Origin: Candidatus Eiseniibacteriota bacterium
GTDB lineage: Bacteria; Eisenbacteria; RBG-16-71-46
DNA length: 64,000 nucleotides
Reading direction: 5' to 3'
Assembly: GCA_963717935.1 (NCBI GenBank)
Contig: CAVQXP010000004.1
Span: 1,369,280-1,433,279 of the forward strand
Of this stretch, positions 40,802-63,647 are shown piece after piece. A program made the translations under genes and the position numbers. How positions within the stretch are numbered: position 1 is the first letter of the stretch; each line of letters begins with the position of its first letter. Below the pieces are notes generated by a model. That model did no database searches. It saw only the letters and a program-made list of their open reading frames with translations, and was not told where the DNA came from.

Positions 40802-42060
40802 CTATCTGTCGTGGTTCGTGCCTCCCCGCTCCAACACGTGCGCGAAGATCGCCAGGTAGTCGCGTATCTCGCGAGGATGGAGGAAGTTGTCCCGCACGTG
40901 CTCGCGTCCCTCGCGCCCGAGTCTGCGGCGCAACGTGGGGTCTCGCAGCAGCCGGGTGATCTGGAACGCGCAGCCCTTCGATCGAGCGGACGAGCATGCC
41001 CGTCCGCTCGTGGATCACCTGCAGGGGAATGCCCCCGACGGCGCTCGCCACGACGGCGCGGCGCTTCCACAGCGCCTCCGAGACGGTCAGGGCGAATCCC
41101 TCGCGCAGCGACTTCTGCACCACCACGGCCGAGCGTCGCTGCAGGGCGTTGATGATCCGGTGCGCGTCGGGTGGCAGCGCCAGGATCGAGATGTCCTTGC
41201 GCCCGCCCGCCTTCTCCTGCGTCTCGGCCAGCACCGCCGCGCCCTCGGGGTCGTCGTCCGCGGTGCCCCCGGCGAGCACGAGGTGCGCCTTCTCACGACG
41301 GCGCGCCAGCAGGAACGCCTCGATGACGCCGATCGGGTCCTTGAGACGGTCGAAGCGCGAGACCTGCGTGACGAGGGGCGTCTCCTGCGGCAGGTCGAAC
41401 GGTTCGAGGAGGGCCTCGAACTCGGACTCGGTGAGCTCACAGTTCTTGTCCGAGAGCGGGTCGATGGAGGGTGGCGCGAGGTAGCCCGGCGTGGGCAAGG
41501 GGGGGACGAAGGTCACGTGCGAGAAGACGGCCGCGTCGTAATGGCCGACGGCGGGGTCACGATGAAGTCGAGCACGTCCCGGTTGGCCCGCGAGAGATCG
41601 ATGTGACAGCGCCAGACCCAGTGCTGGCCGGGACGGCGGCGCAACTCGGCGAGCGCGGCCGGCTGGGGGTCGTGCACGAGGACCAGATCGGCGTCCAGCG
41701 GCCAGCGTCTCCGCCGCCTGCCGGTTCATCTCGAGGAAGTAGTCGTAGTCGTCCCGCGTGATCGTGCCCGGCCCGCCGTGCAGCGTGTTGTGGATCGTCT
41801 TGGTGATGTCGTAGAAGCGTGCGTCGCCGGGCATCACCTCCCAGGTCGTGGGGATCGCCCAGCTCGTTCAGCAGCGGCACCAGGCGGTGCAGGATCTCGG
41901 CCACGCCGCCGCCGGTGGCAGTGGCGTTGACCATCGCGATGCGGTGTCCTCGGAGCGCGCGAGCGAGCGATTCCAGTGCACGCATGGCGCCGTCGCCGAC
42001 CACCGCTCGATAGCCGTCCACGAGCGAGGTGCCGTCGGAGCGGACGTCGACCAGGCTCAT
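40802..42060 (-). pseudogene. treT: Trehalose glycosyltransferring synthase TreT (GT4) disrupted by at least four 1-nt frameshifts
   Basis: Conserved TreT segments are split over three frames. They are MSLVDV...VNATATGGGVAEILHRLVPLLNELG, IPTTWEVMPGDARFYDITKTIHNTLHGG, LDADLVLVHDPQPAALAEL...WRCHIDLS, PPSIDPLSDKNCELTESE...VTQVSRFDRLKD, SLREGFALTVSEALWKRRAVVASAVGG, and the C-terminus RDNFLHPREIRDYLAIFAHVLER* ending at TAG 40802-40804. The reading frame can be followed only by switching between ORF-track frames (41557..42732, 40713..41837) and an unlisted third frame. Confidence 0.7.
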
Positions 42061-42099
42061 GACACCTCCTCCGGGCGTGTGACGCGCCGCAGAGCCGCG

Positions 42100-42820
42100 C
42101 CATGGCCCGGCGACCGGCCTCACGGCGCGCGTCTTCCGGCGACGCCGCCGCTTCCGTGACCCGCCTGGCCGATGCGGCTCTGCCGCCAGCGCCGGTGGAG
42201 CTGTGCCGCGAGCCTTCTCGATGGGCAGACCCGAGCTCGCCGCATCCCGCAGCCACTTCGCCAGGCGGCGATCTCCCGTGACCAGGAGCCAGTCCAGCAG
42301 GGACGCGCGGCCCCTCCTGGAGCCACGGCTCCTCGACGAGGTGGAAGAACCACACGCCCGCGTCGGCCTCCAGCAGCGCTTCCACCAGCTCCTGGCCGTC
42401 CCGTACGCAGGACGCCGGTCGAGAAGCTCGACCGAGGTCGCTGACAGGAACAGGAAGCGACTCTCCTCGGGCGCATCGCGGTCCCGGCGGCGGCTTGCAG
42501 GCAGCGCGTCGAGCACCTCGAGCAGCGCGGCGCCGACGGCGCGTCGGCGAGGCGTGCCGGCTCTGCACGGCGAAGGACGATCCGCTCGGCCGTCTCGGCG
42601 TCCTGCACGACGCCGCCGATCCAGGCGCTGAAGTCGTCCGGAGGCAGCTCGCCGGCGCCCGGGATGGCGCAGCTGATACTGGACGGTGTGGTCGGAAGAG
42701 CACCTCGTCCGGCGCCGACGCGATGCCGTCACGCAGCTGGTCCAGGTCGCGGGCCGGGTCTCCCCACGGCTGGATCAGGTGAGTGACCGCCCTGAGCTCG
42801 AATGAAGTCGCGTCCAGCAT
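42100..42820 (-). pseudogene. Disrupted ORF of unknown function (protein-like segments spread over three frames)
   Basis: MLDATSFELRAVTHLIQPWGDPARDLDQLRDG..., ...LLEVLDALPAS...FLFLSATSVELLDRRP..., VRDGQELVEALLEADAGVWFFHLVEEPWLQEG, LLDWLLVTGDRRLAKWLRDAASSGLPIEKA in different frames of the minus strand. Confidence 0.3.
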
Positions 42821-43528
42821 CAGTCACTGGCCTCTTCGGCCGCTCCTCGTCGAGCGAGCGCAGGTACTCGACCACGAAGTCCCGGGTGAGCTCGCGGCAC
42901 CCGAGCCCGAACGCGAGGGCGAGGCCAAGACCTGCGGCGGCCACGGCGACGATGCCCAGAGCCATGACGAACTGGGCCGCGAAGCCGAGCTGCTCGAGCG
43001 CCAGCAGGGCGGCGAAGCCGATGAGGATCACGGAGACGACCTGGCCCTGGAGCCTGGCGGCGCGGATGCCGGCGGTCTCGAGAAAGCGCTGCGTGACGCT
43101 TCCCAGCAGCATGGCGACCAGGGAGCCGACCGCGAACAGCACGGCGGAGGTCACGATCCGAGGGACGACCTCGTTGAGGCGGTCACCCACCGAGGCAGCG
43201 AGGTTGAACCCGAGCATCTCGAGGGCGAGCAGGGCCGTGGAGGCGATGACGAGCCAGTAGATCGGCCCAGGCGGCCACTCCCGCGGGCTCGTGGCGGGCC
43301 GTCGCGCGCTCGCCGATCAGCCAGCGGACGCCTTCGTCGAACTGAGGGCGCGCAGGACAGCCGACGCAGGAGACGGTCGACGAGGGTCGCGAGCGCCCAG
43401 CCCACGAACATCACGACGACCGCGATCAGGAGACCGAGCGCCCCTCGCTCGGCACCGCGACCCAACTCGCCCAACCGGGCGAGGACGCCCGACCATGGTT
43501 CCACGTGAAGGACAACCAGGGTCCACAT
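42729..43528 (-). CDS. MscS-related 'conserved TM helix' repeat membrane protein; ORF track implies a frameshift near 43260, the displayed sequence as I read it does not
   Basis: N-terminus MWTLVVLHVEPWSGVLARLGELG...(in ORF 43151..44443 frame) and C-terminal part MLGFNLAASVGDRLNEVVPRIVTSAVLFAVGSLVAML... (ORF 42729..43217); paralogue of 60845..61549. Confidence 0.4.
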
Positions 43529-43559
43529 AGAATCACCTCCTGCGATTGCGTCCGGGGCC

Positions 43560-45216
43560 TCAGCCGGACGGCGGTCCGCCCTCGGTGGCAGGACTTGCCG
43601 CCGGAGCGTTCCTGGGTGGGAGTTCTGAGGTTCAGACCGACGATGGTGTCGAGCACGTCGAGCATCCAATCGAAGATGTTGCGGCGCAGGACGGTCTCGC
43701 GAAGCGCGCGCCATGCGTTCGCGTCGCGCGCTCGGGAGCGGCGGAGAGAGCGGCGTGATACGCGTCGGCGAGGCCCTCGCGGTCGTAGGGCGAGAGCGAT
43801 CCAGGCGCGTTCGAGCTCGCGGGCCGCACCGGTGAAGGGGGACAAGCACCAGGGCGCCCTCGAGATCGGGCGAGGCGGCGATGTACTCCTTGGCGACGAG
43901 ATTCATGCCGTCGTGGAGGGACGTGACCGTGCACAGGTCCGCCATCCGATAGTAGGGGACCAGCTCGCGGAAGTCGAGATTGGCCTCGATCAGATGCACC
44001 GTGGGGCCCGCCGCCCGCGGGAAGCGGCGGTTGATGTTCTCGGCCCAGCGCCGCACACGTGCCTGCACGTTGCGGTATTCACGCAACTCGATGCGGGAGG
44101 GCACGCCGATCTGGATGAAGGCGAAGCGCCCCTGCCACTCGGGTGCTTCTCGAACAGGCGCTCGAGCGCTTCGAAGCGCTCGGCGATGCCCTTGGTGTAG
44201 TCGAGGCGGTCCACGCCGAGGCCGACCTTGCAGCCCGTCCAGGCCCAGCCGCCCGCGGAGGTCGGCTCTCGGCCCGTCGGGTCTCCGGCGGCCTCCGCGA
44301 GCGTGGCGATCTCCTCCGCGTCCACGCTGATGGCGAACGGCTGAACCCAGGTGCGCCTGCCGGCGCGGTCGACGGCGAATCGCTCGAGGTCCACGCGGGC
44401 CTCGAAGCGTCTCCGCGACCGTGTCCAGGAAGTTCATGCGCATGTCGGCGGATGTGGAACCCCACCACGTCGTTCGCCAGCATCCCCTCGAGGATCTCCT
44501 CCTTCCAGGGCAGCACGCGGAACACCTCGGGGTTCGGCCACGGGATGTGCCAGAACATCGCCACCTGAAGGTCCGGTCGCCGTTCCTTGATGAAACGGGC
44601 CGCCAGCGCCAGGTGGTAGTCCTGGATGAAGATCAGGGCCGGCTCATCCTCCACCTCCTCGAGCACCGCCGCGGCGAAACGCCGGTTGACCTCGCAGTAG
44701 GACTGCCAATCAGCCAGGTGGAAGCGTGGCCGGACGTACACCACGTGGCACAGCGGCCAGAGGGCGCTGTTGGCGAAACCAGAGTAGTAGCGGGCGTGGT
44801 CCTCATGGGTGAGCCACAGACGTCGCAGTGTGTAGCGTGGTCGATCCGGCGGACAGGCCACGCGGTCGTGAGCATCGACGACGTCCCGGTCGGCGTCACC
44901 GCTGCCGTGGGCCACCCATGCTGCCGCCGAGCGCCTGCATGACCGCATCGAGTGCCACCGTGAGGCCGCCGGCGTTGCGGATCGTGTGGATGCGGTCGCC
45001 GTGGTGGACGTGGGAGTACGGCTCCCGGTTCGAGACGACGACCAGCTTGCGGTCGGGCAGGTGGGCCCGTGCCCAATCGACGAGCTCGCCCGGGTCGTGC
45101 GGGGGGGACCTTCGCTGCGCTGCTGGCTGCGGATCGCAGCCCGGCTCAGCGCGGATCGGGTACGGGCTCTGATGCTCATGCGCGCCTCCGCGGCGGGAAT
45201 CGATCGGCCCCACCAC
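43560..45216 (-). pseudogene. otsA: Trehalose-6-phosphate synthase OtsA (GT20) disrupted by ≥5 frameshifts
   Basis: OtsA segments are distributed over ORF-track entries 44896..45216, 44079..45242, 43990..44394, 43151..44443, 43632..43934 and 43426..43845, all in different frames. The segments are RKLVVVSNREPYSH, YYSGFANSALWPLCH...IFIQDYHLALAARFIKERRPD...WHIPWPNPE, DLERFAVDRAGRRTWVQPFAISVD, GLGVDRLDYTKGI, GRFAFIQIGVPSR...LHDGMNLVAKEY, LSPYDREGLADAYHAAL and FDWMLDVLDTIVGL. Confidence 0.7.
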
Positions 45217-46033
45217 CGGCGGCCCCTGCTACACGCAGCCATTCCTCGAGGAAGTCGGCGACCGAAGCGCAGGTTGGAAGGTGCGCAGCGGCGACCGTCC
45301 GTCGATCGCTCTCACCGACACGCACGCCGAAACCGAATCCCTGGACGGCCTCGAACGCGTCCTCGTCCGTGACATCGTCTCCCAGGAAGACCGCGAGTGT
45401 GTCTTCGGGAGACTGCGAGACGAGCGAGAGAACGGCCGTGCCCTTGTTCCAGCCGCACACACGCAACTCGATGCCTCCGTCGATTCGCTGGAGACGGACC
45501 TTCTCCTCCCCCTCGGCCAGGGTCTGCCACGCGGTCCACGTCTGGTCCTCCAGCTCGCGTGCGAGTCCCCCCCCCGCGACGCCCCGGGTATGGAGCACAA
45601 GCCCCGTACGCTTCCGCTCGAGGAGTCCTCCCATCCCCCTGTCACGAGCCGTCCGCTCGGCGCGATCCAGGATCTCCACCGATGCCGCTGAGACCGGATG
45701 CTGCAGGACCGAACCATCCCTCTGCCGCATCTCCCATCCATGCTCTCCCACCAGCGTGACGGGGAGTGGCCCCAGCAGTCGTCCCACCTCGCTCAGGGAC
45801 CGGCCCGACACGACCGCCACGCTCGTATGGGGCTCCGCGGCGATCGCGCCCACCAACTCAAGAGAGCGTGGCAGCGGGAGTGCCAGTTCACGGGTCACAT
45901 GGAATGGGGCCAGAGTCCCATCGTAGTCCAGCATCAGCAGCCGGTGATGGGCCAGCGAAACCAGCCGCCAGAGTCGTCGCGGGACCCCGGTCAGCAGATG
46001 CGGCTGCTGTACGCGCTTTGCCATGACAGACAT
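45176..46033 (-). CDS. otsB: Trehalose-6-phosphate phosphatase OtsB (HAD-IIB), apparently intact
   Basis: 285 aa; HRLLMLDYDGTLAPF motif I, GDDVTDEDAF motif; C-terminus abuts/overlaps otsA remnant. Confidence 0.8.
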   Translation of the reverse strand: MSVMAKRVQQPHLLTGVPRRLWRLVSLAHHRLLMLDYDGTLAPFHVTRELALPLPRSLELVGAIAAEPHTSVAVVSGRSLSEVGRLLGPLPVTLVGEHGWEMRQRDGSVLQHPVSAASVEILDRAERTARDRGMGGLLERKRTGLVLHTRGVAGGGLARELEDQTWTAWQTLAEGEEKVRLQRIDGGIELRVCGWNKGTAVLSLVSQSPEDTLAVFLGDDVTDEDAFEAVQGFGFGVRVGESDRRTVAAAHLPTCASVADFLEEWLRVAGAAGGGADRFPPRRRA

Positions 46034-46055
46034 CCGCCCGGCGCCGCCGCGCCGC

Positions 46056-46637
46056 CTACTTCAGTCCCGTTGGGACCGGCATCTTCATCTCGGTCATGAG
46101 ATCGACCGCGCTGGCCTTCACTCCGCGGGCCCTGGTGACGGCCTCGGCCAGCTTGCCGTCCTTCATGGCGGTTGTCGCCTCGCCCCACCTGGTCTTCATG
46201 TCCGCCAGGGTGGTCTGGGCGATGGCGAAGCCCGCCCTGTTCATCCCGGCCGGCGGCCTCGCCATCGCGCCCATCCTCTTGTCGAGCGAGGCCACCGCGC
46301 TCGGCAGGGTCGCATTGAGGCTTTTCCAGGCCGCCTGCAACTCCCCCGCCCTGGCGTACAGACCCTCATCCAACTCCTTCACCTTCGCCGGGAGGTCCCT
46401 GGTCGCCTCGAGAGCCGCCTTGGGATCGCCCTTCTCCACGTCCGCCCTGGCGGTGGCGATCGCGTCCTCGATCATCCTCGCTTGATCGGGCGCGACATTC
46501 ATCGCCTCGTCCCGGATCTCGTCGTAGGCGGCCTGCGCCGCCGAAATCGACGCTTCCGCCGCCTTCCTCTGCGTGCCACAAGCGGGGAGGAGCAGCATCA
46601 CCATCAGCGTCAGCACACTGTACGCGAACCGGCTCAT
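46056..46637 (-). CDS. Alpha-helical lipoprotein of unknown function
   Basis: ATG 46637 with AAGGAG RBS inside ORF 46056..47000; signal peptide + lipobox LLLPAC; 193 aa. Confidence 0.6.
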   Translation of the reverse strand: MSRFAYSVLTLMVMLLLPACGTQRKAAEASISAAQAAYDEIRDEAMNVAPDQARMIEDAIATARADVEKGDPKAALEATRDLPAKVKELDEGLYARAGELQAAWKSLNATLPSAVASLDKRMGAMARPPAGMNRAGFAIAQTTLADMKTRWGEATTAMKDGKLAEAVTRARGVKASAVDLMTEMKMPVPTGLK

Positions 46638-47125
46638 CTCCAGGCTCCTTTCCACTGCGGATGCACACCTGTGACGTCCGCTCGGGACGACCGGGGTCCT
46701 ATCGCAGGGCCAGATGGGCGCGGCGGTTCCTCGCCCATGTGAATTCGTCGTGGGCACCCCCGAAGGGCCGTTCCCTGCCATGGGAAACGATCTGGATCCG
46801 CGGGCCGCCGCATCGGCGGCAACGAGGGCCGCCCGGGCTCGCCTTTCTCCAGGCGCCGGATTGTACTCGACCGTGCCCCGCTCATCACAATGCCCCGATC
46901 GTGATCCGCGCTTCGGCGTGCTCGCGCAAGAGCTTGGCGTCCCGGCCGAGCGCCGCCCGCGCGTCGCCGCACAGCCCGACGGCGGATGCCGGGCAAGCAC
47001 AGGCCGGGGCCCCGCCGTGTCGAAGCCGTCACGCGAGTCTCTCCATCCGCGAGCCGCTCGCTCGGCCGGGGGGCGCTGCGGGAGAACTAGACGGCCCCGC
47101 GGGATTGCGCTACAAGTGCGCGGTC

Positions 47126-48454
47126 ATGGGACCCCGCGTGCTCAGGAGCCACCTCGCGTTGCCGGTCATCCTCGGGACGGTGCTCGCCTCGGGAGCCGCT
47201 CATGCGGCCGCCCAGTCCCATGGCCCCGACTTGCCGCCGGTCCTGGCGGCGCTGGTTCTGATCCTCCTCGGTGCGAAGCTTGGCGGCGTGCTCGTTGCCC
47301 GACTCGGCCAGCCGGCCGTGTTGGGGGAGTTGGTCGTGGGCGTCCTCCTCGGCAATCTCGGTCTCCTCGGCTTCCACGGCCTGGAATCGATCAAGGAACT
47401 CGCCGCGATCGATCTGTTGGCCCAGATCGGTGTTCTCTTCCTGCTCTTCGCCGCCGGTCTCGAGTCCGACGTGGGGGAGATGGCGGCGGTCGGCGCGTCC
47501 TCGCTGCTGGTGGCCGTCGTCGGTGTCATCGTACCCATCGCCCTGGGCTTCCTGTGCTCGGCCTGGTTCTTCCCGGGCCACAACCTGCTCAGCCACTGGT
47601 TCGTGGGAGCTGCGCTCTGCGCCACGAGCGTGGGGATCACCGCACGGGTCCTTGCCGACCTCAAGCGCACGAGGAGCAAGGAGGGCCGGATCATCCTTGG
47701 TGCGGCGGTCATCGACGACGTGCTCGGCCTGATCGTGCTCGCGGTCGTCGCGGGTGTCATCAAGGCTGCCGACGCGGGACAGGTGTTCCGCGCCTCCACC
47801 GTGCTCTGGATCGTCGCGAAGGCACTCCTCTTTCTTGCGGGGGCGATCCTGATCGGCCGGTGGCTCTCGCCGCACGCCTTCAGACTGGCCACGCGCCTCA
47901 GGGGGGAGGGCTTGCTCCTCACGGGAGCGCTGGGTTTCTGCTTCGGTCTGGCCTACCTCGCGGGCCTGGCAGGGCTGGCCCCGATTGTCGGTGCCTTCGC
48001 AGCCGGACTCATCCTCGACGAGGTGCACTACCGGGACCTGCTTGACCAGGACAATGCGCGGCGCGCCGTCCCCGAACTGCTCGAGCCCATCACGACGTTC
48101 TTCGTGCCGGTGTTCTTCGTCCTGATGGGCATGCGGGTGGATCTCTCGGTCTTCGGAGTGCCGGGGGTGGTGGGCTTCGCCGCGACGCTGACCGCAGCCG
48201 CCGTGGTGGCAAAACAGGCGTGTGGACTCGGGGTGCTCGAAAGGGGCGTGGACAAGATCGCGGTCGGGCTGGGGATGATCCCGCGAGGCGAGGTCGGTCT
48301 CATCTTCGCGGGGATCGGCTCGACGCTCACGATCGCGGGCGTGCGGGTCGTGGATGACGCGGTCTTCTCGGCCGTCGTGGCGATGGTGGCGCTCACCACT
48401 CTCGTGACCCCGCCGTTGCTCGCGTGGCGGCTCCGGCGCACGGGCGCTGCATGA
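47126..48454 (+). CDS. Monovalent cation:proton antiporter (CPA1/CPA2, Na+/H+ or K+/H+ exchanger membrane domain)
   Basis: ATG 47126 inside ORF 46661..48454; 442 aa, ~12 TM helices, IDDVLGLIVLAVV motif. Confidence 0.85.
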   Translation: MGPRVLRSHLALPVILGTVLASGAAHAAAQSHGPDLPPVLAALVLILLGAKLGGVLVARLGQPAVLGELVVGVLLGNLGLLGFHGLESIKELAAIDLLAQIGVLFLLFAAGLESDVGEMAAVGASSLLVAVVGVIVPIALGFLCSAWFFPGHNLLSHWFVGAALCATSVGITARVLADLKRTRSKEGRIILGAAVIDDVLGLIVLAVVAGVIKAADAGQVFRASTVLWIVAKALLFLAGAILIGRWLSPHAFRLATRLRGEGLLLTGALGFCFGLAYLAGLAGLAPIVGAFAAGLILDEVHYRDLLDQDNARRAVPELLEPITTFFVPVFFVLMGMRVDLSVFGVPGVVGFAATLTAAAVVAKQACGLGVLERGVDKIAVGLGMIPRGEVGLIFAGIGSTLTIAGVRVVDDAVFSAVVAMVALTTLVTPPLLAWRLRRTGAA

Positions 48455-48572
48455 AGGGGAGGCTGCAGCCCGCGCCCGGGGCTTCCTCCCACGACTGAGG
48501 GGGGCGGGAGGAGAGCAGAAGACGATTCCAGCCGGCGACCGGCGGTCGCCGGCGCGAGGGAGGCGCCGGTTC

Positions 48573-49682: not shown

Positions 49683-50036
49683 ATGCAACTGGACATTCGG
49701 GGCTCGAACGTCCGTCTTTCGCAACGGATGCGCTCGTACGTCGAGCGCCGGGTGGGCTTCGCTCTTTCGCGCTTCGGGGCGCGCGTGGCCCGGGTTCGGG
49801 TTCGCCTCTCGGACGCGAACGGCCCCGGGCGGGAAGTGGATCGGGTCTGCAGAGTGATGACCACGGTGCCGGGCGCTACCCCGCTCGTGGTCGAGCAACG
49901 TGATCCCAGACTGACTCTGGCGGTCGATCATGCGCTGGACCGAGTGGCCCGCCAGGTGGCGCGCACGATGGAGCGGATTGACGCGGGCTGGGTGGATCCG
50001 AGTGGTCCGGGGACCCGGCGAGCGGGCCGCAGGTGA
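49683..50036 (+). CDS. hpf: Ribosome hibernation promoting factor / RaiA (short HPF)
   Basis: ATG 49683 inside ORF 48624..50036; MQLDIRGSNVRLSQRMRSYVERRVGFALSRFG...VRVRL, 117 aa. Confidence 0.75.
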   Translation: MQLDIRGSNVRLSQRMRSYVERRVGFALSRFGARVARVRVRLSDANGPGREVDRVCRVMTTVPGATPLVVEQRDPRLTLAVDHALDRVARQVARTMERIDAGWVDPSGPGTRRAGRR

Positions 50037-50068
50037 AGCCGGTCTCGCTCGCGACGCGGAGGAGGCAA

Positions 50069-50938
50069 ATGACCATGCTGGCACCGTCCTCCCACGAGGG
50101 CCGGTCTGAGCGAAGTGACCTGTCTCCGCGGTTCTGGGACCAGGTTCGCCACAGCCGGCACCGCCTGCTGATGCTGGACTACGACGGCACCCTGGCGCCC
50201 TTTCGTGTGCAACGCAGCCAGGCGCGGATCCCGCCTCCGACACTTGCGGTTCTCCGCAGGCTCGTATCGAGCGGAACGACGAGGATCGCGATCGTCTCCG
50301 GTCGGCAGGTCCAGGAACTCGAGAGATTGACCGGCGGGCTTCCCGTGCGCCTGATCGGAGAGCATGGGTGGGAGGAGCGCTCCCCCGGAGGCGCGGTCCT
50401 GCGAAGAAGGCTGCCTCCGGGGGTGGCGCGGTGTCTGGAACAGGCGTCCCGGGCCGCCAGGGCCAGCGGTTGGGGCCCCCATCTCGAGTGCAAGCGCAGT
50501 TCGCTCGTGCTGCATACTCGCGGGCTCCCCGCAGACGAGGCCCGTGAGCTCGAGTTCGCCTGCGGGAGGTTGTGGAGGTCCTTCTTCGAGCGCGATGGCA
50601 TTCGTCTGCAGCGGATCGACGGCGGGATTACGCTGCGCGCGTTCCACCGGCACAAGGGCACGGCGGTCGCGGAGCTGGTCGCCGGCTTGCTCCCGGGCAC
50701 GCTCGCCGTCTACCTTGGCGACGATACCGCGGATGAGGATGCCTTCCACGAACTCCTTGACTGTGGCGTGGCGATTCACGTGGGGGCAACGACTCGCTCC
50801 TCGGCGGCCCGCTTTCATCTGGGGTCCACGGACGATGTCCTCTCCTTTCTCGAACGGTGGGAGGCGACGATGCGGGACGGGGAAGCGGTGTCCGGCGCGC
50901 ATGCGTGCGGGACGCGCTCGATCGGCGGCCGGACATGA
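50069..50938 (+). CDS. otsB: Trehalose-6-phosphate phosphatase OtsB paralogue
   Basis: ATG 50069 with GGAGGAGG RBS (alt GTG 50033); HRLLMLDYDGTLAPF, GDDTADEDAF; 289 aa. Confidence 0.8.
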   Translation: MTMLAPSSHEGRSERSDLSPRFWDQVRHSRHRLLMLDYDGTLAPFRVQRSQARIPPPTLAVLRRLVSSGTTRIAIVSGRQVQELERLTGGLPVRLIGEHGWEERSPGGAVLRRRLPPGVARCLEQASRAARASGWGPHLECKRSSLVLHTRGLPADEARELEFACGRLWRSFFERDGIRLQRIDGGITLRAFHRHKGTAVAELVAGLLPGTLAVYLGDDTADEDAFHELLDCGVAIHVGATTRSSAARFHLGSTDDVLSFLERWEATMRDGEAVSGAHACGTRSIGGRT

Positions 50939-55400: not shown

Positions 55401-55429
55401 CCGCCAGGGCACAACCTCGGACTCAGACC

Positions 55430-56740: not shown

Positions 56741-57624
56741 GAGCCAGGGTCTGGACCAGGGAGCGCCTGCTCCTGCTCGTGCCCGCGCTGCTGCTGCTGG
56801 CGCTGGTCGTGGCGCTCCCCATCCTCCGCGTCGTGCAGCTCAGCCTGTGCCGGGTGGAGCTCCACGGGGGGATCGTCACGCAATGGGCCGGGCTCGACCA
56901 GTTCTGGCGGCTCTGGCAGGACGGCCGGTGGTGGGCCGCGCTTCGCAACACCGCGTTGTTCACTGCCCTGTCGGTGGCGCTCGAGATGGCACTGGGCATC
57001 GCCTTCGCTCTGCTGCTCCACCAGCGCTTCCGGGGCCGGGGCGGCGTGCGGGCCCTGATGATGCTGCCCTGGGCCTTGCCGACCGCCGTGATGGCCCTGG
57101 CCTGGGCGTGGATCTTCAACGACTCGTTCGGCGTGCTCAACGACCTGCTCGAACATCTGGGACTCATCGCGCGCCCGGTGGCCTGGCTGGGCGGGCCGGC
57201 CACCGCGATGCTGGCGCTGGTGATCGCGGACGTATGGAAGACCACTCCCTTCGTCGCGCTCATCGTGCTGGCGGGGCTGCAGGGCATCCCGGAGCAGGTG
57301 CTGGAGGCGGCCCGCGTGGATGGTCTGTCCGCGGGACAGCGGCTGAGGCGGGTGGTGCTGCCGCTGCTGGCGCCCTCGCTGCTCGTGGCCCTCGCCTTCC
57401 GCACGGTGCAGGCCTACGGGGCCTTCGACCTGCCCTACGTCATGACGGGTGGTGGCCCGGGAGGGGCGACCGAGACGGTGGCCCTGTACGCGTACCAGAA
57501 CTACTTCCGCTATCTCGAGTTCGGGTACGGGTCCGCCGTCGCCGTGCAGGGGGCCCTGCTGGCCGCCCTGCTGGTGGCCGCGATGATGAGCCTCGCGGGC
57601 GCGCGGGAACGGAGGGGGACGTGA
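56737..57624 (+). CDS. Sugar ABC transporter permease (MalF/UgpA-like)
   Basis: ATG 56737 overlapping SBP stop; EAA-type loop EAARVDGLSAGQRLRRVVLPLL; 295 aa in ORF 55369..57624. Confidence 0.85.
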   Translation: MRARVWTRERLLLLVPALLLLALVVALPILRVVQLSLCRVELHGGIVTQWAGLDQFWRLWQDGRWWAALRNTALFTALSVALEMALGIAFALLLHQRFRGRGGVRALMMLPWALPTAVMALAWAWIFNDSFGVLNDLLEHLGLIARPVAWLGGPATAMLALVIADVWKTTPFVALIVLAGLQGIPEQVLEAARVDGLSAGQRLRRVVLPLLAPSLLVALAFRTVQAYGAFDLPYVMTGGGPGGATETVALYAYQNYFRYLEFGYGSAVAVQGALLAALLVAAMMSLAGARERRGT

Positions 57625-58484
57625 GGAGCGCCGTCCCGAGGGCCGGAGGAGGCCGCGCGCGCCTGGCCGGAGGACTGCTCGCGCTGGCCGTCGCGCTGCT
57701 GCTGGCGTGGAGCCTGGCGCCGGCGATCTGGCAGGCCCTCACGGCGCTCAAGCCGGACGCCCAGATCACGCACGTGCCCACGATCTACCTGCCGCACCCG
57801 CCGACCTGGCGACACGTCGCGGCCCTGTGGGAGCGCAAGCCCTTCGGGCTCTACCTGGCGAACAGCGCCTGGGTCTCGGCCTGGGCGACCGTGCTGTGCC
57901 TGGGCGTCGCCTCGCTGGCCGCGGCGGCCCTCGCGCGGCTTCCGGGCCGCGGCCGCGAAGGGCTCCTGCTGGCCCTGCTGGTGGTCTCCCTGTTCCCGCC
58001 CATCCTTCTGCTCTTCCCTCTCTACGAGGGCGTGCGGGCGGTCGGTTGGATCAATCACCCGCTGGCCCTCGTGCTGCCGTACGCCGCACTGAACCTGCCG
58101 CTCGCCGTGTGGGTGCTGGAGAGCGCGCTGCGCGCCCTGCCGGTCGAACTCGACGAGGCCGCGCGGCTCGATGGCCTGCCCGCGCTGGGACGCCTGTGGC
58201 GCATCCACCTGCCCCTCGCGCTGCCGTCGCTGGCGACGGCGGGGATCCTGGTCTTCATCTTCTGCTGGAACGAGTTCATGCTGTCCCTGACCTTCATGAC
58301 GCGCGACGCGAACAAGACCGTGACCGCGGGGATCGCCAGCGTCAGCGGCGCCTCGCTCTACGAGATCCCCTGGGGCCAGTTGTCGGCCGCGATCGTCATC
58401 GCCACCGCACCGCTGATCGCCCTGGTACTGTTGTTCCAGCGGCGGATCGTCTCGGGGCTGACCCGGGGCGCGCTCAAGGGCTAG
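57621..58484 (+). CDS. Sugar ABC transporter permease (MalG/UgpE-like)
   Basis: GTG 57621 overlapping upstream stop; DEAARLDGLPALGRLWRIHLPLALP; 287 aa in ORF 56847..58484. Confidence 0.85.
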   Translation: MRSAVPRAGGGRARLAGGLLALAVALLLAWSLAPAIWQALTALKPDAQITHVPTIYLPHPPTWRHVAALWERKPFGLYLANSAWVSAWATVLCLGVASLAAAALARLPGRGREGLLLALLVVSLFPPILLLFPLYEGVRAVGWINHPLALVLPYAALNLPLAVWVLESALRALPVELDEAARLDGLPALGRLWRIHLPLALPSLATAGILVFIFCWNEFMLSLTFMTRDANKTVTAGIASVSGASLYEIPWGQLSAAIVIATAPLIALVLLFQRRIVSGLTRGALKG

Positions 58485-58486
58485 CC

Positions 58487-59566
58487 ATGACCGAACTGCA
58501 GGGCCGGGACCTGACCAAGATCTTCCCTGACGGGACCCGCGCGCTCGACGGGGTCTCCTTCGTGGCGCGCCCCGGGCGCGTGCTGACCCTGCTGGGGCCT
58601 TCGGGTTGTGGCAAGTCGACGCTGCTGCGCATCGTGGCCGGGCTCGACCGCGCCACGTCCGGGACCCTTCGCCTGGACGGCGAGTGTCTTGACGACGTCC
58701 CCGCCGGGCGGCGCGGTGTAGGGCTGGTGTTCCAGAACTACGCCCTCTACCCTCATCTCACCGTGCGGGGCAACCTGTCGCTGGCGCTCGAGACACAGCG
58801 GGTCCCGCGTCGGGAGGTGACCGCGCGCGTGCGCGAGACCGCTGCGCTGCTCGGCATCCTGGAGCTCCTCGAGCGGCGCCCGGGGCAGCTGTCCGGGGGC
58901 CAGCAGCAACGCGTGGCGCTGGGGCGCGCGCTGGTGCGCAGGCCGCGCCTGTATCTGCTCGACGAGCCGCTCTCGAACCTGGACGCGCTGCTGCGGGAGG
59001 GCATGCGGGCCGAGCTGAAGGCCCTCTTCGCGCGCGTCGGCGCGACGGTGATCTACGTGACGCACGATCAGACCGAGGCGATGAGCCTGTCGGACGACCT
59101 GGCCGTGATGCGCTCGGGACGGATCCTCCAGTGTGGAGCGCCGCTCGAGGTCTACCGGCGGCCAGCCGACGTGTTCGTCGCCACCTTCGTCGGCAGCCCG
59201 CGCATGACGGTCTGGCACGGGCACCGCGATGGAGACGCGCTCGCGTGCCGCGGCGTACGGGTGCCGGTGCCGGCCGGCCTGCAAACCGGGGGCCGGCTCG
59301 CCGTGGGCATCCGGCCGGAGGACGCCGAGGTCTCGCCCCGTCCCCTGGAGGGAGGGTGGGCGGCGCAGCGCACGGTGATGGAGCCCCTGGGGTCGAGAGT
59401 GCTGATCACCGTGAGAGTCGGGGGCGAGGACGCGCGGGTCCTGGTGGAGCCGGCCGACTGGCCGGAGGCCCTGTGGATGCGCTGGCCACCCGGTCGACTA
59501 CACTGGTTCGATGCCGAGAGCGGCGCGCGGCTCGACGCCACGGACCACGGGCGGGAGAGGATCTGA
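58487..59566 (+). CDS. Sugar ABC transporter ATP-binding protein (MalK/UgpC-like)
   Basis: ATG 58487; Walker A GPSGCGKST, signature LSGGQQQRVALGRAL, Walker B LYLLDEP; 359 aa in ORF 57707..59566. Confidence 0.9.
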   Translation: MTELQGRDLTKIFPDGTRALDGVSFVARPGRVLTLLGPSGCGKSTLLRIVAGLDRATSGTLRLDGECLDDVPAGRRGVGLVFQNYALYPHLTVRGNLSLALETQRVPRREVTARVRETAALLGILELLERRPGQLSGGQQQRVALGRALVRRPRLYLLDEPLSNLDALLREGMRAELKALFARVGATVIYVTHDQTEAMSLSDDLAVMRSGRILQCGAPLEVYRRPADVFVATFVGSPRMTVWHGHRDGDALACRGVRVPVPAGLQTGGRLAVGIRPEDAEVSPRPLEGGWAAQRTVMEPLGSRVLITVRVGGEDARVLVEPADWPEALWMRWPPGRLHWFDAESGARLDATDHGRERI

Positions 59567-59567
59567 C

Positions 59568-60848
59568 ATGGTCGAACCCACGATCCTGCGTGAGGACGTC
59601 AGGGAGCAACTGGACACCATCGGCGGGGCCGACATCGTCGTCGGCATCCCGTCTTACAACAACGCCCGCACCATCGCCCACGTCGTCCAGGCGGTGACGG
59701 CGGGGCTGGCCAAGTACTTCCCGACGCGACGCGCCGTGCTGGTCAACTCCGACGGTGGCTCCAAGGACGGCACGCCGGCGCTGGTGGCGAGCGCCGAACT
59801 CGGGACGACCCGGGCCATCCTCCTGACCCAACCGCCGCCGCCGGTCCACAAGGTCATCACGGCGTACCAGGGCCTGCCGGGGAAGGGCAGTGCCTTCCGC
59901 ACCATCTTCGAGATCGCGCACCGCCTGGAGGCCCGCGCCTGCGCGGTCGTCGATTCCGACCTCCGGAGCATCACGCCGGAGTGGCTCCAGCTCCTGCTGG
60001 CCCCGGTGACGGATGAGGGCTTCGACTATGTCTGTCCGCTCTACGCGCGGCACAAGTTCGACGGCACGATCACGAATTCCATCGTCTATCCCCTGGTCCG
60101 TGCCCTCTACGGGCGCCGCATCCGGCAGCCCATCGGCGGGGACTTCGGCTTCTCGGGGCGGCTGGCCGCGCACTTCCTCCGCCACGACGTCTGGCAGAGC
60201 GACGTGGCGCGTTTCGGGATCGACATCTGGATGACGACCACGGCGCTGGTGGGCGACTTCCGCGTGTGCCAGTCCTACCTGGGCGCGAAGATCCACGACG
60301 CGAAGGACCCCGGGGCCCACCTGAGCACGATGCTCATGCAGGTCACCGGCTCGCTGTTCGCCCAGGTGGAGGCCCACGCACAGCACTGGCTCGGCGTGGA
60401 AGGCTCCGAGCCGGTGCCCGAGTTCGGCTTCCGCTATGAGGTCGGACTCGAGCCGGTCGCCGTGGATGTCGGGCGGATGGTCCGCGCCTACGACCAGGGT
60501 GTGCGGGACTTCGTCTCCCTGTACGCCCAGTTCCTCGACGCGGAGACCCGCCGCGACCTCGAGAGGCTCGCCGGGCAGGCGCCCGGGACGTTCCGATGCC
60601 GACGGACCTCTGGGTGCGGACGATCTACGCGTTCGCGCTCGCCTACCACCTGCGGCGCCTGAACCCGGAGCACCTGCTGCGAGAGTCTCACGCCGCTCTA
60701 CCTCGGGCGCACGGCGTCCTGGGTCAACCAGGCCGCCGACTACGGGGCCGAGGAAGTGGAAGTCGAGCTGAACGCGCTGTGCGAGCGCTTCGAGGCGCTC
60801 AAACCACATCTCGCCGACGCCTGGCGGGAAGGGAGGATGCCATCATGA
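59568..60848 (+). pseudogene. GT81-like glucosyl/mannosyl-3-phosphoglycerate synthase-family glycosyltransferase; C-terminal region carries a compensating pair of frameshifts (~60590 and ~60690) with an in-frame stop at 60660-60662
   Basis: GGAGAGGA RBS + ATG 59568. DIVVGIPSYNN...LPGKGSAF...VVDSDLRS motifs are present. True continuation MPTDLWVRTIYAFALAYHLRRLNPEHLL is in the ORF 60596 frame. The C-terminus PLYLGRTASWVNQAADYGAEEVEVELNALCERFEALKPHLADAWREGRMPS* is back in the original frame and ends at TGA 60846-60848, overlapping the next ATG. Family call is by architecture/recall. Confidence 0.4.
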
Positions 60849-61549
60849 TTGCCGTGACGATGAGTTCGCTGTGGGACCCGATCACCCGGTTTCTGCAGCG
60901 GAGCGAGGGCCTGCTGCCCGTGTTGCTGGCCATCGCCATCGTGCTGGTGGCCGGCCTGCTGCTGGCCTGGCTGGCCGACGCGCTGTTGCGCTGGGTCCTG
61001 AGGGCCGCTGGTTTCGACCGCATCGCGCACCGCCCGCGCGTGTCGGATTCGCTGCGCCGCGCCGGCCTGCGGCAGCAGCCGTCCGTGCTGGTGGGGCAGC
61101 TGGTCCGCTGGCTGATCGTGATCCTGACGCTGCTCGGCGCTCTGTCGATCCTGAGCGCCGAGGCGACCGATGTCGTGCTCGCTGCGATGGTGACCTACCT
61201 GCCGCGACTCGTCGCGGGCTTGCTCCTGCTCGTGGCCGGCTACGCCGTGAGCATCTTCGCGGGGCGCAGCGTCCTGATCTGGTCGGTCAACGCGCGGGTC
61301 CAGGGTGCGCGCTGGCTGGCCGGCGGCGTGCGGCTGCTGGTGGGCATCTTCTTCGCCGCGCTGGCACTGGAGAACCTGGGGTTCGGGCGTGACATCGCGC
61401 TGGTGGTGCTGGCGATCCTGCTCGGCGGGGGCGTGCTCGCAGCCGCCCTGGCCTATGGGCTGGCCGGCAAGGACCTCGCCCGCCAGTCCCTCGATCGCAT
61501 GACTCGCGAGGCCCGTGGCGAGGATGACGAGACGCTGTCCCACCTCTAG
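60845..61549 (+). CDS. MscS-related 'conserved TM helix' repeat membrane protein (paralogue of 42729..43528)
   Basis: ATG 60845 (MIAVTMSSLWDPITRF...) inside ORF 60596..61549; repeated TM-helix pairs; 234 aa. Confidence 0.6.
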   Translation: MIAVTMSSLWDPITRFLQRSEGLLPVLLAIAIVLVAGLLLAWLADALLRWVLRAAGFDRIAHRPRVSDSLRRAGLRQQPSVLVGQLVRWLIVILTLLGALSILSAEATDVVLAAMVTYLPRLVAGLLLLVAGYAVSIFAGRSVLIWSVNARVQGARWLAGGVRLLVGIFFAALALENLGFGRDIALVVLAILLGGGVLAAALAYGLAGKDLARQSLDRMTREARGEDDETLSHL

Positions 61550-61564
61550 TCCGGAGGTCGCGCC

Positions 61565-62775
61565 ATGAGCGATTTCTTCCAGAACGGCGTCATCACGACG
61601 CTGCACCGGCTCGGCTCGGCTCCGCCCGACAAGATCGAGGCGGAACTGCGTCTGCACAGCCGCACCAACCCGGTCACCCTGATCATCCCGTGCCTCATCA
61701 CCGAGCTCGAGCGGCACGCGATTCGCAAGATCGTGGAGGAGTTGACGAAGGTCGACTACCTGGACGAGATCGTGATCCCGATCGGGCGGGCGGACCGGTC
61801 ATCAGTTCGAGTATGCCCGCCGCTTCTTCGCGCCGCTGGGATCGCGTTGCCGGCTCGATCTGGATCGAAGGCGAGAGGGTCCAGGACTTCATCCGGCTGC
61901 TGCTCGACAACCGGCTCGACATCGGGCCCCCCGGCAAGGGGCGCGCCACCTGGCTCTCCATCGGCTACGTGCTGGCCGGCAATCGCAGCAAGGCCATCGC
62001 GCTCCACGACGCGGACATCGTTTCCTTCGATCGGTCGCTGGTCGGCCGGCTCTGCTACCCGCTGGTGCATCCCAGTCTCGGCTACGAGTACTCGAAGGGC
62101 TACTACGCCCGCGTGACCGATCGCCTGCACGGACGGGTCACGCGGCTGTTCCTCACGCCGCTGGTCCGGTCGCTGATCCAGGTCGTCGGATCGGTGCCCT
62201 TCCTGCGATACCTCGACAGCTTCCGCTACCCTCTGTCGGGGGAGTTCGCGATGCATGCGGACCTCGCCCGCTACGTCCGCATCCCGGGGGACTGGGGACT
62301 GGAGATCGGGATGCTCGCCGAGGTCTACCGGAACACCTCCCTGCGCCGGGTCTGTCAGGTGGACGTGGCCGAGAACTACGAGCACAAACACCAGGCCCTC
62401 TCGCAGGACGATGCTTCGGGCGGCCTCAACCGCATGTCGGGGGACATCTGCAAGTCGGTGCTGCGGACGCTGGCCATGGAGGGAGTGGTCTTCGGGCCGG
62501 GGTTCTACACCACGCTCAAGGTGACCTACCTGCGGCACGCCCAGGACGCCATCCGCAGCTACCACGACGATGCGGTGACCAATGGTCTGCTGTTCGACCG
62601 CCACTCCGAGACGATGGCGGTGGAGGTGTTCCTCAACGCCCTCGAGCGGGGCTGCGAGGAGTTCGAGCGGGCCCCGCTGGCGCTGACCGGGCTGCCCAAC
62701 TGGAACCGGGTCACGTCCGCGATCCCGGACTTCCTCCCGCGCTATCGCGAGGCGATCGATGCCGACAACGCCTAG
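61565..62775 (+). pseudogene. Mannosyl-3-phosphoglycerate synthase-like glycosyltransferase (MpgS/GT55-type) with two closely spaced frameshifts near codon 80
   Basis: N-terminus MSDFFQNGVITTLHRL...IVIPIGRADR (ORF 61565..62116 frame), short third-frame segment HQFEYARRFFAPLGSR, then SIWIEGERVQDFIRLL...GRATWLSIGYVLAGNRSKAIALHDADIVSF...GRVTRLFLTPLV...SGEFAMHADLARYVRIPGDWGLEIGML (ORF 61690..62775 frame); similarity to archaeal/Thermus MpgS recalled from memory. Confidence 0.45.
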
Positions 62776-63647
62776 CCCGCGCCCCGCTCCGGGCCTGGTG
62801 GTGTTCACCGACCTGGACGGGACGCTGCTCCGCCACGAGGACTACGATTGGTCCGCGGCGCGGGAGGCCCTGGCCGAGCTGGCGCGGCGCCGCGTCCCGC
62901 TGGTGATCGCGAGCAGCAAGACGCGCGCCGAGATCGAGGCATGGCGACGCCGGATCGGGAATCAGGATCCATTCATCAGCGAGAACGGAGGCGCGCTCTA
63001 CGTGCCGCCCGGCTCGGTGCCGCGGCCCGATCCCGGGGAGCGTGCCCGCGGAAGGGTATCTGCGCGTCGAGTTCGGCACGCCGTACGCCCGTCTGCGCGA
63101 TGCCCTGAAGCTCCTGGCCCGCGACCTCGGGGTCGGCATGAAGGGATTCGGCGACATGGAAGCCGGCGAGATCGCGCGCCTGACCGGGCTGTCCGGCGAG
63201 GACCTCGATCTCGCCCGGCGCGGGAGTACGACGAGCCCTTCGTGCCGGAAGGCCCGTGGCGCGGCGCAGGAGGAGGCCCGACTGGAGGAGATGGCCGGCG
63301 CGCTCGGCCTGCGGGTGACGCGCGGCGGCCGCTTCCACCACCTGATCGGCCCGAACAGCAAGGGCGAGGCGGCCCGTCTCCTGATGTCGGGCTACCGGGC
63401 GGGCAGCGAGTCCGTCGCGTCGCTCGGTCTGGGCGACGGTCCCAACGATCTGGAGCTGCTGCTGGCCGTGGACCACCCGGTCGTGGTGGCCCGTCCCGAC
63501 GGCACGCACGCGCCCGAGCTGCGGGCCGGGACTGCCGCCGCACGCGCACTTCACTCGCGGAGCGGGCCCGGAGGGGTTCGCGGAGGCGGTGCTCGATTGT
63601 CTGGCGCGGCTCCCGTAGCACCTCCTCGCCGATCGCGCTATGGGTAG
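62759..63647 (+). pseudogene. mpgP: Mannosyl-3-phosphoglycerate phosphatase MpgP (HAD-IIB, YedP family) with ≥3 frameshifts
   Basis: ATG 62759 overlapping upstream gene. The first segment is LVVFTDLDGTLL...LVIASSKTRAEIEAWRRRIG...ENGGALYVP. The protein then continues in the ORF 63042..63647 frame as YLRVEFGTPYARLRDALKLLARDLGVGMKGFGDMEAGEIARLTGL, ...EEARLEEMAGALGLRVTRGGRFHHLIGPNSKGEAARLL and LGLGDGPNDLELLLAVDHPVVV. A short EYDEPFVPEG segment lies in a third frame. Confidence 0.6.

What the first reader, a model, noticed from the sequence alone, without database searches (positions are those of the whole stretch)
40802..63647. All sugar-osmolyte synthase genes are multiply frameshifted while interleaved transport, channel and regulatory genes are intact
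treT (≥4 shifts), otsA (≥5), an unknown ORF (≥2), a GT81-like GpgS/MpgS-family gene (2), the MpgS-like gene (2) and mpgP (≥3) together carry roughly 18 one-nucleotide frameshifts in about 7 kb. The ~16 kb of neighbouring genes show none (ClC, both otsB copies, lipoprotein, antiporter, LysR, HPF, MscS, a 2-kb TPR gene and the 4-kb ABC operon). If errors were uniform at about 1 per 400 nt, the chance of 16 kb being clean is negligible, so the damage is gene-specific. Two explanations fit. One is coordinated, very recent loss of trehalose and mannosyl/glucosylglycerate synthesis, with a shift to osmolyte uptake and efflux. The other is that these particular genes are heterogeneous in the sequenced population and the consensus is corrupted. 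No nonsense substitutions or large deletions were noticed: the segments between shifts remain highly protein-like. Such retention is unusual for old pseudogenes.
Basis: partly seen in the sequence, partly recalled or inferred. Interest (0 to 1): 0.85.

Follow-up and report, generated by a model that had tools for sequence, protein, structure and literature searches.

The report
Assembly-error frameshift clusters, not pseudogenes
The many frameshifts in the trehalose and glucosylglycerate genes are really in the sequence, but they look like consensus errors from assembling a mixed population, with both versions of a variable base written in, so the genes are most likely intact in the organism.

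Summary
The frameshifts exist and are more numerous than reported: 38 frame breaks in 8.4 kb. Thirty lie in otsA, an msc-like gene, DUF5752 and treT (40973-45088). Eight lie in GT2, the GpgS-like gene and the MPGP-family phosphatase (60595-63531). Template-verified flanks (13.3 kb) have 1-2 (Fisher P=7e-14).

The damage is not specific to osmolyte synthases:
- DUF5752 and an msc-like membrane gene are hit hardest.
- Both otsB genes are intact.

The breaks do not behave like mutations:
- About 80% are single-base insertions, mostly outside homopolymers.
- There are no in-frame stops or amino-acid gaps.
- dN/dS of frame-corrected genes (otsA 0.09, treT 0.13, GpgS-like 0.06) equals that of intact neighbours (ClC 0.13, LysR 0.12).
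- All 13 relatives' contigs have intact genes.

In 23/25 and 3/4 insertions, the inserted base and its neighbour are the two alleles that relatives show at one polymorphic site, mostly a third codon position. Expected by chance: 0.36 and 0.08 (slot null); 0.34 and 0.02 from simulated insertions, against re-aligned observed counts of 17/22 and 3/4. This points to a collapsed, mixed-haplotype long-read consensus.

Verdict: artefact. Low interest.

The parts
43563..45179 (-). otsA (GT20 trehalose-6-phosphate synthase). 13 frame breaks, 92% aa identity to L001 OtsA after correction, dN/dS 0.086.
42828..43528 (-). msc-like 234-aa membrane protein (PF05552 helix; C-terminal part of NCBIfam 'msc'). 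3 frame breaks, 90% identity after correction.
42060..42820 (-). DUF5752 gene. 10 frame breaks, the densest of all; 81% identity after correction.
40805..42060 (-). treT-like GT4 trehalose synthase. 4 frame breaks (41853, 41696, 41550, 40973), 88% identity after correction, dN/dS 0.128.
45203..46012 (-). otsB copy 1 (trehalose-phosphatase), intact. It marks the sharp right edge of error block 1 (P=0.003 of being clean at the block density).
38820..40646 (-). ClC chloride channel, intact, 90% aa identity to L001. It forms the left edge of block 1.
46700..47120 (-). OmpA/Pal-like gene with at least 2 frame breaks (about 46896 and 46801). Conserved motifs are split over two frames.
59568..60845 (+). 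GT2 glycosyltransferase, 426 aa, with weak GpgS similarity. 2 breaks (60595 -1, 60681 +1), 94% identity to L002.
60845..61546 (+). Second msc-like 234-aa gene, 0 breaks. Not significant: P=0.15 at the block-2 density.
61565..62772 (+). GpgS_Meth-like glucosyl-3-phosphoglycerate synthase homologue, 402 aa. 2 insertions (61799, 61856), 98% identity to L002, dN/dS 0.057.
62759..63615 (+). Mannosyl-3-phosphoglycerate phosphatase-family HAD-IIB hydrolase, 285 aa. 4 breaks (63030, 63219, about 63256-63268, 63530).
29762..29768 (+). G7 homopolymer where a GT4 gene (28560-29780; homologues 406 aa) loses frame 6 codons before its stop. This is a homopolymer-type error, unlike the block errors.

Best explanation
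The frameshifts are consensus errors in a metagenome-assembled contig, probably long-read. They are not lesions in the organism's DNA. In three discrete segments the consensus was built from reads of two or more diverged haplotypes. These could be co-occurring strains, a close relative, or a second copy. At single-nucleotide differences between the haplotypes, the aligner or polisher represented the variant as an insertion and kept both alleles side by side. Less often it dropped a base next to such a site. Each event shifts the frame by one.

The underlying genes are most likely intact and functional: otsA, msc-like, DUF5752 and treT; GT2, msc-like, GpgS-like and the MPG-phosphatase family gene; and an OmpA/Pal-like gene.

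Shown: the clustering, the indel spectrum, the two-allele signature, unchanged selection, and intact relatives.

Inferred: the assembly technology, the step at which the error arose, and why these segments are heterogeneous.
For: 1. Two-allele signature. At window-only single-base insertions, the inserted base and its neighbour are the two alleles that relatives carry at one site. For example, at 60681 the window has C[G]AGAG, L002 has A and L004-7 have G. At 43847 the window has GGT[G]CTT and relatives have C or G. Counts are 23/25 in block 1 (slot null 0.356, P=6e-9) and 3/4 in block 2 (slot null 0.079, P=0.002). With re-alignment, and with random insertions simulated into the corrected sequence, the figures are 17/22 vs 0.34, 11/25 vs 0.19 (only the 4 closest relatives), and 3/4 vs 0.02.

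2. The polymorphic sites involved fall 16-20: 6: 2 on codon positions 3: 1: 2. This mirrors the natural substitution spectrum (0.29 / 0.07 / 0.045 per position).

3. Spectrum. There are about 31 insertions and about 7 deletions, nearly all 1 nt. Only 8/25 (block 1) and 0/4 (block 2) are homopolymer-type.

4. No decay. Nucleotide identity to L001 is 85.8% in block 1 and 85.0% in ClC, yet gaps are 44 vs 3. dN/dS is otsA 0.086, treT 0.128, MS1 0.163, GpgS-like 0.057 and GT2 0.171, against intact ClC 0.130, LysR 0.122 and baeRF 0.243. There are no in-frame stops and no codon gaps.

5. All 13 relatives' contigs have 0 frameshifts with the same method. These include L002 and L003, 93% identical in nucleotides, from independent sequencing-run assemblies.

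6. Edges are sharp and independent of function. otsB, directly upstream of otsA on the same strand, is clean (P=0.003). DUF5752, msc-like and OmpA-like genes are hit.

7. Signs of a long-read assembly: a 2.14-Mb metagenomic contig and a separate G7 homopolymer frame error.

8. Precedent. Nearby allelic variants cause wrong read alignments and INDEL errors, hence apparent frameshifts, in a collapsed long-read consensus (PMC8445201).
Against: - No reads, coverage or assembly metadata are available. The technology, the polishing history and the presence of a second haplotype are therefore inferred.
- I could not identify the source record; look-ups failed.
- The null rate for the two-allele pattern is high (0.34) when 12 relatives are used. 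With only 4 close relatives the enrichment is more modest (44% vs 19%).
- It is not explained why heterogeneity would be confined to these three segments.
- The OmpA-like locus could not be tested for the two-allele signature, because no orthologous DNA was available.
Confidence: 0.8

Rival explanations
1. Random residual long-read errors in locally low-coverage stretches. These would be accessory or bridging segments supported by very few reads, with no link to haplotype mixing.
For: - Errors cluster in discrete segments with sharp edges.
- The insertion-dominated, non-homopolymer spectrum resembles raw single-molecule error profiles. This comparison rests on my own knowledge.
- Selection is unchanged and relatives are intact, which fits any artefact.
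Against: Random errors should not coincide with sites that are polymorphic among relatives. They should not insert the alternative allele, nor follow the 3>1>2 codon-position spectrum. The observed rates are 77-92% against 34-36% expected, and 75% against 2-8%.
Confidence: 0.12
2. Genuine, very recent and coordinated pseudogenisation of the trehalose and glucosylglycerate/mannosylglycerate synthesis genes.
For: - The frameshifts are in the deposited sequence, and gene callers split the genes (P0001, P0121).
- Uptake and efflux genes nearby are intact.
Against: - 38 indels come with no excess substitutions, no stops and dN/dS of 0.06-0.17, equal to neighbours.
- Insertions outnumber deletions about 5:1 and mostly avoid homopolymers. 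This is contrary to the deletion-biased, slippage-driven bacterial spectra I know of.
- Inserted bases duplicate alleles of polymorphic sites.
- Non-osmolyte genes are broken (DUF5752, msc-like, OmpA-like), while otsB directly upstream of otsA is not.
- One frameshift already inactivates a gene, so 10-13 per gene would need long neutral decay, which the substitution data exclude.
Confidence: 0.04
3. Programmed recoding (ribosomal frameshifting or transcriptional slippage) restores the reading frames in vivo.
For: None, beyond the retention of protein-like sequence between the shifts.
Against: There are 38 different sites with no shared slippery motif, and most are not in homopolymers. Orthologues in 13 relatives need no recoding.
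Confidence: 0.01

Closest known systems
Apparent frameshifts from collapsed or mosaic haplotype consensus in long-read assemblies (e.g. Trypanosoma brucei Tb427; PMC8445201)
   Same: ORFs are truncated by INDEL errors introduced where nearby allelic variants disturb read alignment. The genes are intact once haplotypes are separated. The errors concentrate where heterozygosity or heterogeneity is high.
   Different: Here the 'alleles' would be strains, relatives or paralogues in a metagenome rather than homologous chromosomes. The affected regions are three short segments. The both-alleles-retained signature is inferred here from relatives, not from reads.
Homopolymer indel errors of nanopore-type assemblies (PMC9262707 abstract)
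   Same: They also create artificial frameshifts in MAG genes. One such case is present in this window (a G7 run at about 29.76 kb).
   Different: The block errors are mostly not in homopolymers (8/25 and 0/4 are homopolymer-type) and are mostly insertions.
True bacterial pseudogenes (reductive evolution, niche shift)
   Same: Several frameshifts per gene, with related pathway genes affected together.
   Different: Selection is not relaxed, there are no nonsense codons or deletions, the mutation spectrum is wrong, and no relative shares any lesion.
Thermoproteus tenax tpsp-gt-msc trehalose operon (PMC3634074)
   Same: This concerns the underlying biology of block 1: trehalose synthesis genes are co-operonic with a GT4 glycosyltransferase and a short MscS-transmembrane-like protein.
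   Different: This is a bacterial locus with separate otsB and otsA, an added DUF5752 gene and a TreT-like GT4. The same msc-like gene type also sits in the GpgS-like operon.

Membership tests
Degraded pseudogenes (neutral decay) | Reading frame disrupted by frameshifts and/or nonsense codons | tested here: met
   38 frame breaks. There are no nonsense codons in the corrected frames.
Degraded pseudogenes (neutral decay) | Relaxed selection: dN/dS raised towards 1 and excess substitutions relative to intact neighbours | tested here: not met
   dN/dS is 0.06-0.26, the same range as intact neighbours (0.11-0.24). Nucleotide identity is 85.8% vs 85.0%.
Degraded pseudogenes (neutral decay) | Indel spectrum of spontaneous mutation (deletion bias, homopolymer or repeat slippage; from my own knowledge) | tested here: not met
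   About 31 insertions vs about 7 deletions. Only 8/25 and 0/4 are homopolymer-type.
Collapsed/mixed-haplotype consensus indel artefact | Indels coincide with sites that vary between haplotypes or lineages | tested here: met
   23/25 and 3/4 against slot nulls of 0.356 and 0.079. With re-alignment, 17/22 and 3/4 against simulated rates of 0.34 and 0.02. The codon-position spectrum is 3>1>2.
Collapsed/mixed-haplotype consensus indel artefact | Inserted base is the alternative allele of the adjacent site (both alleles retained) | tested here: met
   Examples at 60681, 61856, 63030, 44267, 44237, 43847, 43795, 43731, 42664, 42579, 41857, 41699 and 40977.
Collapsed/mixed-haplotype consensus indel artefact | Reads show two haplotypes over the affected segment, and the indels vanish after phasing or re-polishing | not testable with these tools
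   No reads or coverage data are available, and the source record was not retrievable.
Collapsed/mixed-haplotype consensus indel artefact | Assembly derived from error-prone long reads | tested here: inconclusive
   A 2.14-Mb metagenomic contig and a G7 homopolymer frame error suggest it. The technology was not verified.
Programmed frameshifting / transcriptional slippage | Conserved slippery motif at the shift site, with the shift conserved in orthologues | tested here: not met
   The contexts are heterogeneous and orthologues are in frame.
OtsA (GT20 trehalose-6-phosphate synthase) | Full-length GT20 domain match | tested here: met
   Pfam PF00982 matches fragments covering profile positions 24-404. 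The corrected protein is 92% identical to the 536-aa L001 OtsA. For the L001 orthologue, the NCBIfam equivalog TIGR02400 scores 423 bits, below its 565 cut-off.
GpgS (Methanococcoides-type glucosyl-3-phosphoglycerate synthase, NF040724) | Score at or above the curated equivalog cut-off | tested here: not met
   The alignment is full length (3-401 of 402) but scores 370 bits against a 700 cut-off. It is a homologue; substrate specificity is not established.
Mannosyl-3-phosphoglycerate phosphatase family (TIGR01486) | Score at or above the subfamily cut-off | tested here: met
   224.7 bits against a 164.75 cut-off for the L002 orthologue, which is 87% identical to the corrected window gene.

The most novel reading that the evidence does not exclude
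The artefact may report a real population feature. Two diverged allelic versions of the otsA-treT operon, the GpgS-like operon and the OmpA/Pal-like gene may coexist in the sampled population, or be shared with a co-resident relative through recent recombination or transfer. That would make osmoadaptation loci local hot spots of microdiversity on an otherwise clonal backbone. One hint: block 2 is about twice as close to L002 at synonymous sites (dS 0.13-0.28) as the flanking LysR and baeRF genes (dS 0.40).
Probability: 0.3. Interest if true: 0.4.

Novelty: not a real feature. Interest (0 to 1): 0.12.

Why it matters
As biology it matters little. There is no evidence that this bacterium has lost compatible-solute synthesis.

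It matters for data quality.
- The deposited contig carries dense, localised consensus errors that split at least eight genes.
- Fragments of those genes already sit in public protein collections as separate proteins (P0001, P0121).
- Metabolic reconstruction from this MAG would wrongly score the trehalose (OtsA, TreT) and glucosylglycerate/mannosylglycerate-type pathways as absent or pseudogenised.

The 'both alleles retained at a polymorphic site' signature can be tested using relatives alone. It offers a way to tell such artefacts from true pseudogenes when reads are not available.

Tried and rejected
1. Finding the source record. Exact look-ups of otsB and of P0001 found nothing. The cluster look-up gave no accessions. 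Technology and coverage therefore remain unknown.

2. The genome-contig scan with OtsA returned only distant relatives. The best was 68% identical, 'Candidatus Eisenbacteria bacterium'. This suggests the phylum-level neighbourhood but gave no close template.

3. tblastn alone blurred the shift junctions and underestimated identity. I replaced it with my own frameshift-aware alignment and validated that on relatives.

4. GC bias as a cause is rejected. The highest-GC parts of the window (26-30 and 34-36 kb, 74-75% GC) are essentially clean.

5. Large 'non-coding' Viterbi stretches (5.8-8.1 kb and others) were suspected of hiding broken genes. The 5.8-8.1 kb stretch holds an intact GT2 gene in the lowest-GC part of the window, so atypical codon usage probably explains that call.

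6. Pfam on the individual OmpA-like frame fragments gave nothing because they are too short. The case rests on the frame-aware alignment to the L001 OmpA gene.

7. The HPF C-terminal '+2' at about 50038 lies in a divergent non-domain tail. I left it as ambiguous and did not count it.

8. Cross-mapping between the two blocks within the window is rejected. Their shared msc-like genes are only 29% identical.
Full report
**Context.** The window is about 70% GC, so long spurious ORFs abound. A GC3 frame plot shows stable frames in most genes but repeated phase switches at 40.8-45.3 kb and 60.6-63.6 kb. Pfam finds TreT and GT20 (OtsA) domains split over overlapping minus-strand ORFs.

One fragment is 100% identical to a public protein (P0001, 366 aa) called on a 2,138,985-bp contig. 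A fragment from block 2 likewise matches P0121 (320 aa). The frameshifts are therefore in the deposited sequence. The closest named relatives are 'Candidatus Eisenbacteria' MAGs.

**Templates.** L001 is a 3.6-Mb contig of a relative. It carries the intact syntenic operon otsA (536 aa), msc-like (234), DUF5752 (251), treT (417), OmpA and ClC. L002-L007 carry the intact operon GT2 (426), msc-like (234), GpgS-like (402) and MPGP-family phosphatase (285), followed by a convergent glycerate kinase. L002 and L003 are 93% identical in nucleotides and 98% in protein, and come from independent sequencing-run assemblies. A JGI metagenome scan added closer block-1 relatives: L095 at 90%, L088 at 84% and L089 at 81% nucleotide identity.

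**Observation.** I wrote a frameshift-aware protein-to-DNA alignment. Frame breaks per gene:
- otsA: 13
- msc-like: 3
- DUF5752: 10
- treT: 4
- GT2: 2
- msc-like 2: 0
- GpgS-like: 2
- phosphatase: 4

That is 38 in 8423 nt. The following have none: ClC, otsB-1, LysR, baeRF, MscS, TPR, SBP, two permeases, the ATPase and the partial glycerate kinase. The same method calls zero frameshifts in 13 relatives' contigs wherever the genes are present, so it is specific, and all relatives are intact.

Blocks versus template-verified flanks: 38/8423 against at most 2/13250, Fisher P=7e-14. otsB lies directly upstream of otsA on the same strand. The probability of it being clean at the block-1 density is 0.003, so the edge is sharp. 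A template-free codon-usage Viterbi over all 64 kb finds short frame segments only in the two blocks.

- The 'unknown ORF' is two genes, msc-like and DUF5752, with 13 breaks between them.
- An OmpA/Pal-like gene at about 46.70-47.12 kb (-) lies inside the supposedly clean region and is also broken. Its motifs 'AKLLREHAEARITI', 'GHCDERGTVEYN..GERRA' and 'RIQIVSHGRERPF..NRRAHLALR*' sit in two frames. It aligns to the L001 OmpA gene at 61% identity only with two frame jumps; otherwise it runs into '**'.
- A GT4 gene (homologues all 406 aa) loses frame in a G7 run six codons before its stop.
- Both otsB genes, which belong to the trehalose pathway, are intact.

The damage is therefore specific to segments, not to function.

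**What the indels are.**
- Against L002 the events are single bases, mostly insertions outside homopolymers: CTGC[G]AGAG, CCGG[T]CATC, GGCT[C]GATC, CCCG[A]TCC.
- Overall there are about 31 insertions and about 7 deletions.
- Nucleotide identity to L001 is the same in block 1 (85.8%) as in ClC (85.0%), while gaps are 44 against 3.
- After frame correction there are no in-frame stops and no codon gaps.
- dN/dS is otsA 0.086, treT 0.128, msc-like 0.163, DUF5752 0.223, GT2 0.171, GpgS-like 0.057 and phosphatase 0.257. Intact genes give ClC 0.130, LysR 0.122 and baeRF 0.243.

Ten to thirteen frameshifts per gene, with no sign of relaxed selection, is incompatible with pseudogene decay.

**The diagnostic signature.** In multiple alignments with relatives, the inserted base and its neighbour are the two alleles that relatives carry at a single polymorphic site. 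At 60681 the relatives have C-A-GAG or C-G-GAG, and the window has C-GA-GAG. At 61856 the alleles are G/C and the window has CG. At 63030 they are G/A and the window has GA. In block 1 the same holds at 44267, 44237, 43847, 43795, 43731, 42664, 42579, 41857, 41699, 40977 and others.

Counts against chance:
- 23/25 in block 1 against 0.356 expected (P=6e-9), and 3/4 in block 2 against 0.079 (P=0.002).
- A stricter null inserted random bases into the corrected sequence and re-aligned. It gives 17/22 vs 0.34, 11/25 vs 0.19 (4 closest relatives only), and 3/4 vs 0.02.
- The sites involved fall 16-20: 6: 2 on codon positions 3: 1: 2, like natural substitutions between these lineages.

No mutational process I know of inserts the alternative allele next to a polymorphic base. 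A consensus built from mixed haplotypes does. A published precedent describes nearby allelic variants causing wrong read alignments and INDEL errors, hence apparent frameshifts, in a collapsed long-read consensus (PMC8445201).

A megabase-scale metagenomic contig and the separate G7 homopolymer error fit a long-read assembly. Large Nanopore-only soil MAG sets, assembled with Flye and polished once with Medaka, exist and report variable microdiversity (PMC12313526). I could not verify that this contig belongs to any such set.

**Mechanism (best estimate, 0.8).** In three segments (40973-45088, about 46.8-46.9 kb, and 60595-63531), reads from two or more diverged haplotypes were collapsed into one consensus. 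At SNPs, both alleles were retained as an insertion, or a neighbouring base was dropped. The genes are intact in vivo. Why these segments are affected is unknown. Candidates are strain-level allelic dimorphism, reads recruited from a co-resident relative that shares these operons, or a second genomic copy. One hint of separate operon history: dS to L002 is 0.13-0.28 in block 2 but 0.40 in the flanking LysR and baeRF genes.

**Rivals.**
- Random low-coverage errors (0.12) fit the clustering but not the allele signature.
- Real coordinated pseudogenisation (0.04) is contradicted by selection, spectrum, relatives and the non-osmolyte genes that are hit.
- Programmed recoding (0.01) is excluded by heterogeneous sites and in-frame orthologues.

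**Gene identities, from the intact orthologues**:
- The 402-aa protein aligns full length to GpgS_Meth but below the cut-off (370 vs 700 bits).
- The 285-aa protein passes the MPGP-family cut-off.
- The 426-aa GT2 has only weak GpgS similarity.
- TreT and OtsA match their families, although below the equivalog cut-offs.

Substrate specificity (glucosyl- vs mannosyl-glycerate) is not established.

**Verdict.** The biological interpretation (loss of osmolyte synthesis) is not supported. This is not a real biological feature and is of low interest, apart from being a caution for annotating this MAG.

Noticed in passing
window 46700-47120 (-): An OmpA/Pal-like gene with at least 2 frame breaks lies between an intact lipoprotein gene (46056-46640, lipobox LLLPAC) and the Na+/H+ antiporter. 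The two-allele test was not possible because no orthologous DNA was available.
   Followed up: partly
window 29762-29768 (+): A G7 homopolymer causes a frame error 6 codons before the stop of a GT4 gene (28560-29780; homologues 406 aa). The true stop overlaps the next GT4 start (ATGA at 29737-29740). The public gene call would be a read-through ORF running to 31028.
   Followed up: yes
window 42828-43528 (-) and 60845-61546 (+); L001 11639-12343; L002 4244-4948: Both osmolyte operons encode a paralogous 234-aa membrane protein. It resembles the C-terminal part of NCBIfam 'msc' and has a PF05552 helix; the two copies are 29% identical to each other. Block 1 also has DUF5752. This recalls the tpsp-gt-msc trehalose operon of Thermoproteus tenax (PMC3634074). 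The arrangement is conserved in many soil metagenome contigs.
   Followed up: partly
window 59568-63615 vs L002: Synonymous divergence to L002 is about half in the GT2-to-phosphatase operon (dS 0.13-0.28) of what it is in the flanking LysR and baeRF genes (0.40). L002 also lacks the MscS-TPR and ABC-transporter genes that lie between HPF and GT2 in the window. This suggests the operon has been exchanged or rearranged between lineages.
   Followed up: no
window 9758-9899 (+): An Rfam hit to group II intron domains D1-D4 (RF02003; 50 bits against a gathering score of 49; E=4.5e-8) lies just downstream of a 611-aa ORF (7889-9724) in the glycosyltransferase cluster.
   Followed up: no
window 1-36000: This is a large polysaccharide-biosynthesis cluster with several GT4 and GT2 genes, a Polysacc_synt flippase, PIG-L, Bac_transf and sugar nucleotidyltransferases. 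A lower-GC stretch (about 63% at 6-8 kb) has atypical codon usage and may have been acquired horizontally.
   Followed up: partly
window 50000-50070 (+): The HPF (Ribosomal_S30AE) C-terminal tail differs from L002 by a 2-nt indel and stops 10 residues earlier. It is unclear whether this is natural variation or another consensus error.
   Followed up: partly
L001 1-2945: In the relative's contig a glucokinase gene is split into 136-aa and 246-aa parts by a Transposase_mut insertion, and a 59-aa G6PD_C fragment is called at the locus edge.
   Followed up: no
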